A stretch of DNA of 64,000 bases, taken from the human T2T-CHM13v2.0 reference genome, Homo sapiens. The notes under the pieces were generated by a model. The model was given only the letters and a program-made list of their open reading frames with translations. It was not told the origin of the DNA and made no database searches. Made by a program: the position numbers and the translations under genes. Position 1 is the stretch's first letter. Each line of letters begins with the position of its first letter. Where the stretch lies: contig CP068257.2 in NCBI GenBank assembly GCA_009914755.4, forward strand, positions 24,256,001 to 24,320,000. Reading direction: 5' to 3'. This document shows positions 22,436 to 26,260 of the stretch, piece after piece.

Positions 22436-25400
22436 ATGACAGGATCAAATTCACACATAACAGTATTAACTTTAAATGTAAATGGACTAAATTCTGCAAT
22501 TAAAAGACACAGACTGGCAAGTTGGATAAAGAGTCAAGACCCATCAGTGTGCTGTATTCAGGAAACCCATCTCATGTGCAGAGACACACACAGGCTCAAA
22601 ATAAAAGGATGGAGGAAGATCTACCAAGCAAATGGAAAACAAAAAAAGGCAGGGGTTGCAATCCTAGTCTCTGATAAAACAGACGTTAAACCAACAAAGA
22701 TCAAAAGAGACAAAGAAGGCCATTACATAATGGTAAAGGGATCAATTCAACAAGAGGAGCTAACTATCCTAAACATATATGCACCCAATACAGGAGCACC
22801 CAGATTCATAAAGCAAGTCCTGAGTGACCTACAAAGAGACTTAGACTCCCACACATTAATAATGGGAGACTTTAACACCCCACTGTCAACATTAGACAGA
22901 TCAACGAGACAGAAAGTCAACAAGGATACCCAGGAATTGAACTCAGCTCTGCACCAAGCGGACCTAATAGACATCTACAGAACTCTCCACCCCAAATCAA
23001 CAGAATATACATTTTTTTCAGCACCACACCACACCTATTCCAAAATTGACCACATAGTTGGAAGTAAAACTCTCCTCAGCAAATGTAAAAGAACAGAAAT
23101 TATAACAAACTATCTCTCCGACCACAGTGCAATCAAACTAGAACTCAGGATTAATAATCTCACTCAAAGCCGCTCAACTACATGGAAACTGAACAACCTG
23201 CTCCTGAATGACTACTGGGTACATAACGAAATGAAGGCAGAAATAAAGATGTTCTTTGAAACCAACGAGAACAAAGACACAACATACCAGAATCTCTGGG
23301 ACGCATTCAAAGCAGTGTGTAGAGGGAAATTTATAGCACTAAATGCCCACAAGAGAAAGCAGGAAAGATCCAAAATTGACACCCTAACATCACAATTAAA
23401 AGAACTAGAAAAGCAAGAGCAAACACATTCAAAAGCTAGCAGAAGGCAAGAAATAACTAAAATCAGAGCAGAACTGAAGGAAATAGAGACACAAAAAACC
23501 CTTCAAAAAAATCAATGAATCCAGGAGCTGGTTTTTTGAAAGGATCAACAAAATTGATAGACCGCTAGCAAGACTAATAAAGAAAAAGAGAAGAATCAAA
23601 TAGACACGATAAAAAATGATAAAGGGGATATCACCACCGATCCCACAGAAATACAAACTACCATCAGAGAATACTACAAAAACCTCTACACAAATAAACT
23701 AGAAAATCTAGAAGAAATGGATACATTCCTCGACACATACACTCTCCCAAGACTAAACCAGGAAGAAGTTGAATCTCTGAATAGACCAATAACAGGAGCT
23801 GAAATTGTGGCAATAATCAATAGTTTACCAACCAAAAAGAGTCCAGGACCAGATGGATTCACAGCCGAATTCTACCAGAGGTACAAGGAGGAACTGGTAC
23901 CATTCCTTCTGAAACTATTCCAATCAATAGAAAAAGAGGGAATCCTCCCTAACTCATTTTATGAGGCCAGCATCATTCTGATACCAAAGCCGGGCAGAGA
24001 CACAACCAAAAAAGAGAATTTTAGACCAATATCCTTGATGAACATTGATGCAAAAATCCTCAATAAAATACTGGCAAACCGAATCCAGCAGCACATCAAA
24101 AAGCTTATCCACCATGATCAAGTGGGCTTCATCCCTGGGATGCAAGGCTGGTTCAATATACGCAAATCAATAAAGGTAATCCAGCATATAAACAGAGCCA
24201 AAGACAAAAACCACATGATTATCTCAATAGATGCAGAAAAAGCCTTTGACAAAATTCAACAACCCTTCATGCTAAAAACTCTCAATAAATTAGGTATTGA
24301 TGGGACGTATTTCAAAATAATAAGAGCTATCTATGACAAACCCACAGCCAATATCATACTGAATGGGCAAAAACTGGAAGCATTCCCTTTGAAAACTGGC
24401 ACAAGACAGGGATGCCCTCTCTCACCGCTCCTATTCAACATAGTGTTGGAAGTTCTGGCCAGGGCAATCAGGCAGGAGAAGGAAATAAAAGGTATTCAAT
24501 TAGGAAAAGAGGAAGTCAAATTGTCCCTGTTTGCAGACGACATGATTGTTTATCTAGAAAACCCCATTGTCTCAGCCCAAAATCTCCTTAAGCTGATACG
24601 CAACTTCAGCAAAGTCTCAGGATACAAAATCAATGTACAAAAATCACAAGCATTCTTATACACCAACAACAGACAAACAGAGAGCCAAATCATGAGTGAA
24701 CTCCCATTCACAATTGCTTCAAAGAGAATAAAATACCTAGGAATCCAACTTACAAGGGATGTGAAGGACCTCTTCAAGGAGAACTACAAACCACTGCTCA
24801 AGGAAATAAAAGAGGACACAAACAAATGGAAGAACATTCCATGCTCATGGGTAGGAAGAATCAATATCGTGAAAATGGCCATACTGCCCAAGGTAATTTA
24901 CAGATTCAATGCCATCCCCATCAAGCTACCAATGACTTTCTTCACAGAATTGGAAAAAACTACTTTAAAGTTCATATGGAACCAAAAAAGAGCCCGCATC
25001 GCCAAGTCAATCCTAAGCCAAAAGAACGAAGCTGGAGGCATCACACTACCTGACTTCAAACTATACTACAAGGCTACAGTAACCGAAACAGCATGGTACT
25101 GGTACCAAAACAGAGATATAGATCAATGGAACAGAACAGAGCCCTCAGAAATAACGCCGCATACCTACAACTATCTGATCTTTGACAAACCTGAGAAAAA
25201 CAAGCAATGGGGAAAGGATTCCCTATTTAATAAATGGTGCTGGGAAAACTGGCTAGCCATATGTAGAAAGCTGAAACTGGATCCCTTCCTTACACCTTAT
25301 ACAAAAATCAATTCAAGATGGATTAAAGATTTAAACGTTAGACCTAAAACCATAAAAACCCTAGAAGAAAACCTAGGCATTACCATTCAGGACATAGGCG

Positions 25401-26260
25401 TGGGCAAGGACTTCACGTCCAAAACACCAAAAGCAATGGCAACAAAAGCCAAAATGGACAAATGGGATCTAATTAAACTAAAGAGCTTCTGCACAGCAAA
25501 AGAAACTACCATCAGAGTGAACAGGCAACCTACAACATGGGAGAAAATTTTCGCAACCTACTCATCTGACAAAGGGCTAATATCCAGAATCTACAATGAA
25601 CTCAAACAAATTTACAAGAAAAAAACAAACAACCCCATCAAAAAGTGGGCAAAGGACATGAACAGACACTTCTCAAAAGAAGACATTTATGCAGCCAAAA
25701 AACACATGAAAAAATGCTCACCATCACTGGCCATCAGAGAAATGCAAATCAAAACCACTATGAGATATCATCTCACACCAGTTAGAATGGCGATCATTAA
25801 AAAGTCAGGAAACAACAGGTGCTGGAGAGGATGTGGAGAAATAGGAACACTTTTACACTGTTGGTGGGACTGTAAACTAGTTCAACCATTGTGGAAGTCA
25901 GTGTCGCAATTCCTCAGGGATCTAGAACTAGAAATACCATTTGACCCAGCCATCCCATTACTGGGTATATACCCAAAGGACTATAAATCATGCTGCTATA
26001 AAGACACATGCACACGTATGTTTATTGCGGCATTATTCACAATAGCAAAGACTTGGAACCAACCCAAATGTCCAACAATGATAGACTGGATTAAGAAAAT
26101 GTGGCACATATACACCATGGAATACTATGCAGCCATAAAAAATGATGAGTTCATGTCCTTTGTAGGGACATGGATGAAACTGGAAACCATCATTCTCAGT
26201 AAACTATCGCAAGAACAAAAAACCAAACACCGCATATTCTCACTCATAGGTGGGAATTGA
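22436..26260 (+). pseudogene. ORF2: L1 ORF2 (EN, RT and Cys-rich domains), disrupted by two offsetting homopolymer frameshifts around 23503-23509 and 23585-23595
   Basis: the ORF track shows 22436-23518 (360 aa, [29 protein letters not shown]) and 23717-26260 (847 aa, [52 protein letters not shown]) in the same frame, separated by stops. The region between translates in the +1 frame as [26 protein letters not shown]. The 63-nt ORF1-ORF2 spacer is intact. Confidence 0.9.

What the first reader, a model, noticed from the sequence alone, without database searches (positions are those of the whole stretch)
22436..26260. Near-coding-competent L1: ORF1 and ORF0 intact, ORF2 broken only by two offsetting homopolymer indels about 85 nt apart
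ORF1 encodes the full 338 aa, and the 63-nt spacer and ORF2 start are intact. ORF2 reads 360 aa to a TGA at 23516. The same frame then re-opens for 847 aa (23717-26260) covering the Z/RT/FADD/Cys-rich regions. Between the two, the L1 protein sequence [26 protein letters not shown] is encoded in the +1 frame. This implies one extra A in the CAAAAAA(A)TCAATG run around 23503-23509 and a short deletion in the AAGAAAAA(..)GAGAAGAAT run around 23585-23595. Both are in A-homopolymers, which are classic sites of sequencing or assembly error as well as of true slippage. If both are artefacts, this would be a fully intact, potentially retrotransposition-competent element. If real, the element can still produce ORF1p and ORF0 but not a functional ORF2p, and could only move in trans.
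Basis: partly seen in the sequence, partly recalled or inferred. Interest (0 to 1): 0.55.

Follow-up and report, generated by a model that had tools for sequence, protein, structure and literature searches.

The report
Full-length L1PA2 with frameshifted ORF2
This is an ordinary full-length LINE-1 retrotransposon of the L1PA2 type: ORF1 and the antisense ORF0 are still open, but ORF2 is knocked out by a 1-base insertion and a 4-base deletion about 80 bases apart in slippage-prone A-rich runs, which makes it one of the thousands of dead full-length L1 copies in ape genomes.

Summary
Window 20448-26478 is a full-length L1 with a 16-bp target-site duplication, nested in an older L1 3' end. ORF1 (338 aa) and antisense ORF0 (71 aa) are open, and the 63-nt spacer is intact. 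ORF2 is interrupted only between 23505 and 23590.

Two corrections:
- The first lesion is A7 at 23505-23511, against A6 in 43 of 43 other L1 copies.
- The second is a 4-nt loss (AAGAAAAAAAGAGAGAAGAAT to AAGAAAAAGAGAAGAAT). It spans an A-run and a GA repeat, so it is not a simple homopolymer miscount. The net change is -3, and four in-frame stops lie between the two lesions.

The "maybe intact and competent" reading is poorly supported:
- The same 4-nt deletion occurs in an independent L1 copy at another locus.
- Many diverged L1 ORFs in public data end in KKKRRIK*, KKERRIK* or KKKERRIK*, so this run is a recurrent natural frameshift hotspot.
- These are the only two length differences from consensus across 6 kb and 44 homopolymer runs.
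- The 3'UTR carries GAG/A, the L1PA2 signature, not Ta or pre-Ta.
- A repaired ORF2p would still carry about 17 private replacements, including W1158S, R1159Q and S1097P.

Verdict: an already known kind of object, of low interest. No independent read-level data were available.

The parts
20432..20447 (+). 5' copy of the target-site duplication, AAAAAAGGATGAGTTC
   Evidence: An identical 16-mer lies at 26521-26536 (sequence). The flanks are one older L1 3' end whose consensus coordinates overlap by 16 nt.
20448..21355 (+). L1 5'UTR, 908 nt, full length, with YY1 core CAAGATGGCCG at 20461-20471 and 38 CpG
   Evidence: It aligns from position 1 of the panel consensus.
20685..20900 (-). ORF0, antisense, 71 aa plus stop (MAGSPPPASL...RCVCHPFL*)
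   Evidence: Translation. The 71-aa length is given in PMC4908685. The stop position matches the ORF0 reverse primer OU306 in PMC7746726.
21356..22372 (+). ORF1, 338 aa, open
   Evidence: There are three private replacements (G168A, I217V, E324Q) against the panel consensus.
22373..22435 (+). 63-nt inter-ORF spacer
   Evidence: Read directly from the sequence.
22436..23518 (+). ORF2 part A: 358 authentic codons (EN domain 1-239 plus tower baseplate and most tower helices), then N, Q and TGA
   Evidence: EN residues N14, E43, D145, N147, D205 and H230 are identical to solved ORF2p.
23505..23511 (+). A7 run carrying the +1 insertion (A6 in every other copy)
   Evidence: A6 in 43 of 43 copies.
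23511..23588 (+). 26 ORF2 codons (INESRS...LIKKK, residues 359-384) that now sit in the +1 frame
23583..23590 (+). Site of the 4-nt deletion (reference AAGAAAAAAAGAGAGAAG, here AAGAAAAAGAGAAG), which returns reading to the ORF2 frame
   Evidence: Reference length is found in 36 of 39 other copies and the same deletion only in L010.
23561..26260 (+). ORF2 part B: open frame covering residues about 387-1275 (PIP box, RT with FADD, wrist, Cys-rich CTD). The first ATG is at 23717 (M429) and the stop is TGA 26258-26260.
26261..26478 (+). 3'UTR with subfamily-diagnostic GAG (26372-26374) and A (26457), AATAAA at 26463-26468 and a first A13 tract at 26466-26478
   Evidence: The diagnostic scheme comes from PMC5210629 and PMC7026601.
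26479..26497 (+). 19-nt block, GATTTGAATTTGCAAATAC, unlike the L1 body or the host-L1 flanks, between two poly(A) tracts. It is a candidate short 3' transduction from the source locus.
   Evidence: single occurrence in the window. The transduction reading is inference.
26498..26520 (+). Terminal poly(A), A17 G A5, running into the TSD
26521..26536 (+). 3' copy of the target-site duplication

Best explanation
A full-length L1PA2-class LINE-1 inserted by target-primed reverse transcription into the 3' end of an older L1. The signs are a 16-bp TSD that starts in an A-run, a poly(A) tail and a possible 19-nt 3' transduction. It has since decayed as neutral DNA.

Two genuine replication-slippage indels hit the densest cluster of long homopolymers in the element. 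One is +1 in an A6 run. The other is -4 in an A7/(GA)n run 80 nt downstream. The first shifts the frame and ends ORF2 after residue 358 plus two aberrant residues (360 codons in all). The second happens to restore the frame, but four stops lie in between.

If transcribed, the locus can encode ORF1p, ORF0p and at most a 360-aa EN-plus-tower fragment. It cannot encode a reverse transcriptase fused to EN. It is therefore retrotransposition-incompetent in cis, and its RNA could move only by rare trans-complementation.

Shown: the anatomy, both lesions, the subfamily signature and the recurrence of frameshifts at this run. Inferred: that the indels arose after insertion, that they are not sequencing errors, and the expression potential.
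For: - Anatomy and ORFs.
- End-to-end match of the repaired protein to solved human ORF2p, and of ORF1p.
- Site 1 is A6 in 43 of 43 other copies. Site 2 has reference length in 36 of 39, with -1 (L007), -3 (L019) and the identical -4 (L010, a different locus) in the rest.
- Public ORFs from diverged L1 copies end in KKKRRIK*, KKERRIK* or KKKERRIK*. These are recurrent -4 and -1 frameshifts in the same run.
- The two lesions are the only length differences from a 31-copy consensus across the element, which has 44 homopolymer runs of 5 nt or more. So there is no sign of a general homopolymer-error problem.
- The region holds 5 of the element's 23 runs of 6 nt or more.
- About 41 private substitutions (about 36 after removing 5 that match the solved reference ORF2p, presumed L1HS) give about 0.6% private divergence, so a few real indels are expected.
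- The GAG/A 3'UTR signature means L1PA2: with PMC5210629 and PMC7026601.
- GRCh38 holds 13,418 full-length non-intact L1s: PMC5210629.
Against: - No independent reads or second assembly of this locus could be examined. Exact-protein look-ups of all three ORFs and an exact 107-nt search found nothing.
- That the only two indels in 6 kb lie 80 nt apart and sum to a multiple of three is mildly unlikely by chance. The rough figure is 3-5% for proximity times 1/3 for frame. A local low-quality stretch could produce the same pattern.
- Private changes are somewhat clustered around 23505-23690.
- The timing of the indels, before or after insertion, is not resolved.
Confidence: 0.85

Rival explanations
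1. Both lesions are sequencing or assembly artefacts in low-complexity A-rich sequence. The real locus would then have an uninterrupted 1275-codon ORF2 and be a full-length intact L1PA2-class element.
For: - Both lesions touch A-runs, are 80 nt apart and sum to -3. They are the only length differences in the element.
- A repaired ORF2 has no other stop.
- L1Base lists 25 intact L1PA2-class elements in GRCh38, so such loci exist (PMC5210629).
Against: - The second lesion is 4 nt and spans a GA repeat. It needs two separate miscounts or a 4-nt loss.
- The same allele exists in an independent contig from another locus, and the run is a recurrent natural frameshift site.
- The other 42 homopolymer runs of 5 nt or more match consensus length.
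- An element with about 0.6% private divergence is expected to carry real indels.
Confidence: 0.05
2. Dead on arrival. One or both indels were already present in the source RNA, or were made by L1 reverse transcriptase slipping during TPRT. Either the copy was mobilised in trans by another element's ORF2p, or it was broken in the very act of insertion.
For: - L010, a different locus, carries the identical 4-nt deletion on an otherwise near-identical 178-nt stretch.
- ORF1 is intact, as trans-mobilised RNAs would need.
- Both lesions lie in template homopolymers where RT slippage is plausible (inference).
Against: - L010 lacks the +A and the private G at 23608. No other informative shared variant exists.
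- The same frameshift outcome is seen in clearly unrelated, diverged copies, which favours recurrence over descent.
- None of 18 further copies has the deletion.
- The strong cis preference of L1 makes trans mobilisation rare (established knowledge; discussed in PMC10830420).
Confidence: 0.1
3. Split-ORF2 element. The EN-tower fragment (1-358) and a re-initiated RT-CTD fragment (M429-1275) are both made and complement each other, as separate ORF2p fragments do in the bipartile Alu retrotransposition (BAR) assay.
For: - Both halves are long open frames with catalytic motifs intact.
- EN347 plus 348-RTCys fragments reconstitute Alu retrotransposition at low level (PMC4889948).
Against: - The two frames would leave a 70-residue gap (359-428). 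That gap removes the tower lock, the KKKR motif and the PIP box (PMC10830420; PMC4176336).
- Gaps of 58 or 83 aa abolished BAR.
- No mechanism is known for initiating at an AUG 200 nt past a stop deep inside ORF2.
- Private W1158S, R1159Q and S1097P lie in the CTD.
Confidence: 0.02

Closest known systems
L1PA2 subfamily of primate LINE-1, in the L1Base category 'full-length non-intact L1' (FLnI-L1)
   Same: - Full length: about 6.03 kb, 908-nt 5'UTR with YY1 box, ORF0, a 338-aa ORF1, 63-nt spacer, ORF2 with EN, RT and Cys-rich regions, 3'UTR, poly(A) and TSD.
- The 3'UTR diagnostic nucleotides are GAG/A.
- ORF2 is disrupted, as in most of the 13,418 human FLnI-L1s.
   Different: Nothing categorical. 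This copy is unusually well preserved: only two indels, ORF1 and ORF0 open, 100 CpG retained. Its ORF2p shares several states with the solved reference ORF2p sequences (presumed L1HS; S20, A21, S29, V990, T1035) that none of the 21-27 panel copies covering those sites show. That suggests a late L1PA2 lineage.
L1HS Ta / pre-Ta (currently active human L1)
   Same: The organisation is the same. ORF1p differs at only 3 of the roughly 230 positions aligned to the solved fragment 2yko (two further mismatches are engineered residues in that construct). ORF2p differs at about 27 of 1275 positions from solved human sequences.
   Different: - The 3'UTR has GAG/A instead of ACA/G or ACG/G.
- It has the ancestral states V15, S754, T908, R970, A1005 and M in EFMSF.
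- ORF2 is frameshifted.
Retrotranspositionally-incompetent L1 loci able to express truncated, EN-containing ORF2p (Kines et al. 2014, PMC4176336)
   Same: ORF1 is intact and a premature ORF2 stop lies downstream of an intact EN domain. The predicted product (1-358 plus 2 aa) falls between their EN239 and ENz490 constructs and is close to EN347 of PMC4889948.
   Different: Their 92 human loci were selected to have no frameshift, only stop codons. Here the stop is created by a frameshift, so stop-codon readthrough could not yield full-length ORF2p.

Membership tests
LINE-1 (full-length primate L1) | ORF1p homologous to human L1 ORF1p (coiled coil, RRM, CTD) | tested here: met
   The 338-aa ORF matches solved human ORF1p chains at E = 7.8e-141.
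LINE-1 (full-length primate L1) | ORF2 encoding an APE-type endonuclease, a reverse transcriptase (FADD) and a Cys-rich C-terminal domain | tested here: met
   The repaired translation aligns 1-1273 to ORF2p 8uw3 1-1275. The EN residues, FADD and CX3CX7HX4C are present. As it stands in the DNA, the reading frame is interrupted.
LINE-1 (full-length primate L1) | TPRT hallmarks: poly(A) tail, flanking target-site duplication, A/T-rich EN target | tested here: met
   There is a 16-bp TSD beginning in an A6 run (T/AAAAAA on the top strand), plus A13 and A17GA5 tails. The host L1 coordinates overlap by 16 nt.
L1PA2 subfamily | 3'UTR shared sequence variants GAG (5930-5932) and A (6015) | tested here: met
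   GAG is at 26372-26374 and A at 26457. The scheme is from PMC5210629 and PMC7026601.
L1PA2 subfamily | Best match to the curated L1PA2 consensus (Dfam/Repbase) over the whole length | not testable with these tools
   No repeat library was available. A 31-copy ad hoc consensus was used instead.
L1HS Ta / pre-Ta | 3'UTR ACA/G (Ta) or ACG/G (pre-Ta) | tested here: not met
   The window has GAG/A.
Full-length intact, potentially retrotransposition-competent L1 (FLI-L1) | Uninterrupted ORF1 | tested here: met
Full-length intact, potentially retrotransposition-competent L1 (FLI-L1) | Uninterrupted ORF2 of about 1275 codons | tested here: not met
   A +1 insertion and a -4 deletion leave four in-frame stops between them.
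Full-length intact, potentially retrotransposition-competent L1 (FLI-L1) | Activity in a cultured-cell retrotransposition assay | not testable with these tools
   This needs an experiment.
ORF0-bearing primate L1 (L1PA8 to L1HS) | 71-aa antisense ORF in the 5'UTR downstream of the antisense promoter | tested here: met
   A 71-aa ORF lies at 20685-20900 (-). Its length and stop position agree with PMC4908685 and with primer OU306 in PMC7746726. Expression was not tested.
Kines-type loci (truncated EN-containing ORF2p) | Intact ORF1 plus a premature ORF2 stop downstream of an EN domain with intact catalytic residues | tested here: met
   The stop follows residue 358+2. N14, E43, D145, N147, D205 and H230 are conserved.
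Kines-type loci (truncated EN-containing ORF2p) | ORF2 without gaps or frameshifts (their selection criterion) | tested here: not met
   The stop arises from a frameshift.

The most novel reading that the evidence does not exclude
The two closely spaced, frame-restoring indels are not independent accidents. On this reading they define a naturally split ORF2 whose EN-tower (1-358) and RT-CTD (429-1275) halves are both translated and cooperate in trans, as engineered ORF2p fragments do in the BAR assay. The locus would then still contribute endonuclease and reverse-transcriptase activity, for example for Alu mobilisation.
Probability: 0.02. Interest if true: 0.5.

Novelty: already known. Interest (0 to 1): 0.07.

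Why it matters
It matters very little beyond annotation. The locus should be recorded as a full-length, ORF1- and ORF0-intact, ORF2-frameshifted L1PA2. That class can add to pools of L1 RNA, ORF1p, ORF0 chimeric transcripts and possibly EN-containing fragments, but not to autonomous retrotransposition.

Two small practical points follow:
- The A7/(GA)n run encoding KKKRE (ORF2p 382-386) is a recurrent natural frameshift hotspot, so lesions there should not be dismissed as sequencing error by default.
- The 19-nt tag after the first poly(A) could identify the source element if a genome search were run.

Tried and rejected
- Exact-sequence look-ups of the 360-aa, 847-aa and 338-aa products in the public gene-position index found nothing on record. 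So no independent assembly of the locus was obtained.
- An exact 107-nt string carrying both lesions gave 0 hits in metagenome contigs. A generic pattern gave 0 hits in viral contigs.
- I considered that L010 might be the same locus, which would have made the +A polymorphic or artefactual. I rejected this. L010 leaves L1 after 178 nt into unrelated Alu-bearing DNA and lacks the window's private G at 23608.
- I considered a trans-mobilised sub-lineage carrying the 4-nt deletion. I judged it unlikely: 0 of 18 further copies carry it, and equivalent frameshifts occur in clearly unrelated diverged copies.
- I considered selection for frame restoration. I rejected it because four stops lie between the indels.
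- The first protein homology search returned only L1 ORF fragments at 95% identity or less and no intact young ORF2p. It was not useful as a reference.
- The ad hoc panel contains collapsed or chimeric contaminant contigs. For example, L017 has a pre-Ta 3'UTR but, unlike the solved reference ORF2p, lacks S20, A21 and S29. The 'private' counts are therefore upper bounds.
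Full report
**What is in the sequence**

The mechanical ORF list and the raw sequence show a complete primate LINE-1 on the + strand.
- A 908-nt 5'UTR begins GGGAGGTGGGAGCCAAGATGGCCG at 20448. 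The YY1 core is at 20461.
- ORF1 runs 21356-22372 and is 338 aa.
- A 63-nt spacer follows.
- ORF2 has its ATG at 22436 and its normal stop at 26258-26260.
- The 3'UTR has AATAAA at 26463-26468, followed by poly(A).
- On the minus strand, 20685-20900 encodes a 71-aa ORF, MAGSPPPASL...RCVCHPFL*. The length matches published ORF0 (PMC4908685). Its stop coincides with the ORF0 reverse primer in PMC7746726.
- ORF1p matches solved human ORF1p fragments at E = 7.8e-141.

**The ORF2 lesion**

In the ORF2 frame, translation reads ...ETQKTLQK then NQ and TGA at 23516. The +1 frame reads [26 protein letters not shown]. The original frame resumes at ...[14 protein letters not shown].

Joining the three pieces gives a stop-free protein. 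It aligns 1-1273 to solved human ORF2p 8uw3 1-1275, and the only gap falls at KKK[RE]KNQ. The C-terminal third is likewise collinear. Four stops lie in the ORF2 frame between the lesions, at 23516, 23537, 23555 and 23558.

**Reference state of the two sites**

No repeat library or primate genome was available. I therefore collected L1 copies present as human contamination: 26 metagenome contigs and 18 contigs in bacterial genome assemblies.
- **Site 1.** The window has A7 at 23505-23511. All 43 readable copies have A6. The first search pattern would also have accepted A5 to A8.
- **Site 2.** The common states are AAGAAAAAAAGAGAGAAGAAT or AAGAAGAAAAGAGAGAAGAAT. The window has AAGAAAAAGAGAAGAAT, which is 4 nt shorter. 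This is A7 to A5 plus GAGAG to GAG, or a single AAGA loss.
- The net change is +1-4 = -3. That agrees with ORF2 spanning 3825 nt instead of 3828 nt.

It is not a one-base homopolymer miscount.

**Are the lesions real?**

I could not obtain reads or a second assembly. Exact look-ups of all three ORF products and an exact 107-nt search found nothing. The indirect evidence favours real mutations.
1. Contig L010 carries exactly the same 4-nt deletion with A6 at site 1. After 178 nt it leaves L1 for unrelated Alu-bearing DNA, and it lacks the window's private G at 23608. It is therefore a different L1 insertion from an independent assembly.
2. L007 (-1) and L019 (-3) also changed length in the same run.
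3. A protein search with the frameshifted C-terminus recovered many diverged L1 ORFs ending in KKKRRIK*, KKERRIK* or KKKERRIK*. These correspond to -4 and -1 frameshifts in this run. It is a recurrent natural hotspot, not the marker of one lineage.
4. Against a 31-copy consensus, the two lesions are the only length differences in the whole 6.03-kb element. The element contains 44 homopolymer runs of 5 nt or more. An assembly prone to homopolymer error should show more.
5. The element has about 41 substitutions seen in no panel copy. That falls to about 36 after removing five that match the solved reference ORF2p (presumed L1HS). The result is about 0.6% private divergence. By inference from primate neutral rates, this means several million years of decay, over which a few real indels are expected.

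If only the +A were an artefact, the 4-nt deletion alone would still end ORF2 at KKKRRIK*.

**A residual oddity**

The only two indels lie 80 nt apart and sum to a multiple of three.
- Under uniform placement, proximity alone has P of about 0.03.
- If indels are restricted to runs of 6 nt or more, P is about 0.055, because this region holds 5 of the element's 23 such runs.
- The frame coincidence adds a factor of about 1/3.

This is mildly unusual, but a local density of slippage-prone runs explains it. Selection for frame restoration is excluded by the intervening stops. A local low-quality stretch remains the only artefact scenario, and I give it about 5%.

**Subfamily and competence**

The 3'UTR has GAG at 26372-26374 and A at 26457. 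L1Base2 gives GAG/A as the L1PA2 diagnostic, ACA/G as Ta and ACG/G as pre-Ta (PMC5210629). PMC7026601 says the same and notes that L1PA2 no longer contributes to retrotransposition in humans.

At the protein level the copy is intermediate.
- It shares S20, A21, S29, L141, Y226, N241, S245, A290, T392, A589, F627, V990, T1035 and T1252 with solved human ORF2p sequences.
- It keeps the older states V15, S754, T908, R970, A1005 and M in EFMSF.

This fits a late L1PA2.

About 17 replacements are private or nearly so. They are I10V, T47M, F84V, A212T, K240N, H417N, A420T, N581K, S723R, K866E, K885E, I911T, M995T, I1008M, S1097P, W1158S and R1159Q. The last three lie in the C-terminal domain next to the Cys-rich motif. 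The EN catalytic residues, FADD and the Cys motif are intact. Even a repaired element would therefore be an aged L1PA2 of doubtful activity.

**Insertion anatomy**

The element is nested in an older L1 3' end. That host aligns at 19843-20447 to consensus 5112-5709 and at 26521-26879 to consensus 5694-6036, a 16-nt overlap.

The overlap equals the TSD AAAAAAGGATGAGTTC, at 20432-20447 and 26521-26536. The TSD begins in an A-run, as expected for L1 EN cleavage.

After the first A13 tract comes a unique 19-nt block, GATTTGAATTTGCAAATAC, and then A17GA5. The simplest reading is a short 3' transduction. On that reading the source element's short encoded A-tract left the cleavage site, about 30 nt past AATAAA, in flanking DNA. 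This is inference.

**What the locus can do (inferred)**

If transcribed, it can make ORF1p and ORF0p. By the normal ORF2 initiation route it can make a 360-aa product containing the EN domain, the tower baseplate and most of the tower helices. The domain limits are from PMC10830420: tower 239-440, tower helices 301-370, tower lock 374-382, PIP box 404-419.

This resembles the EN-containing truncated proteins studied by Kines et al. (PMC4176336) and the EN347 fragment of PMC4889948, which was not cytotoxic. Because the stop arises from a frameshift, readthrough cannot restore full-length ORF2p.

A split-protein rescue, as in the BAR assay, is very unlikely. The second open frame's first AUG is M429, which leaves a 70-residue gap that removes the tower lock, the KKKR motif and the PIP box. 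Gaps of 58 to 83 residues abolished BAR.

**Comparison with what is known, and verdict**

This is a member of a well-known class. GRCh38 alone lists 13,418 full-length non-intact L1s against 146 intact ones (PMC5210629). The copy is better preserved than most, but nothing about it is new in kind.

The hopeful half, artefacts hiding a competent element, is improbable. Novelty: already known. Interest: low.

Noticed in passing
window 26479-26497: A unique 19-nt block, GATTTGAATTTGCAAATAC, sits between the L1's first A13 tract and a second A17GA5 tail, just before the TSD. This is the structure expected of a short 3' transduction and could identify the source locus.
   Followed up: partly
window 19843-20447 and 26521-26879: The young L1 is nested in the 3' end of an older L1 that is 80-88% identical to the young consensus. 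The two halves overlap by exactly the 16-bp TSD.
   Followed up: yes
window 45140-45245 (-), continuing to about 44870: There is a U6 snRNA match (Rfam RF00026, 59 bits, full length but diverged). It is followed directly by what looks, by eye from the sequence and recalled L1 3' ends, like an old L1 3' end. This is the arrangement of a U6/L1 chimeric retropseudogene. An Alu lies immediately upstream.
   Followed up: partly
window 54344-54445 (-): A tiny 5'-truncated L1 3' end of about 100 nt is 94% identical to the young consensus. It has a very short A-rich tail and a 12-bp TSD, AAGAACATATTA, and lies next to a (GT)n microsatellite.
   Followed up: partly
L010:2563-2740 (-) and proteins P0141, P0230, P0135, P0122, P0152: The A7/(GA)n run encoding ORF2p KKKRE (382-386) is a recurrent frameshift hotspot. 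An identical 4-nt deletion sits in an unrelated L1 fragment, and many diverged L1 ORFs end in KKKRRIK*, KKERRIK* or KKKERRIK*.
   Followed up: yes
loci L027-L044: Eighteen species-representative bacterial or archaeal genome assemblies contain 0.7-7 kb contigs that are human-type L1. Examples are Streptomyces kurssanovii JCM 4388, Actinomadura cremea JCM 3308 and several Mycobacterium sp. This is host or laboratory contamination in public assemblies.
   Followed up: no
window 22463-22591: Six changes that are private or rare against the panel cluster within 130 nt at the start of ORF2. Three of them (S20, A21, S29) are the states of solved reference ORF2p sequences (presumed L1HS) but occur in none of 27 panel copies. 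This suggests either a late L1PA2 lineage or that the contaminant-derived panel under-represents young elements.
   Followed up: partly
window-wide (for example 2335-2654, 11064-11365, 16637-16923, 61249-61534): The window is very Alu-rich: more than 25 Alu-like matches to the Alu in L010. This fits a gene-dense primate region. The species and locus of the window were not determined.
   Followed up: no
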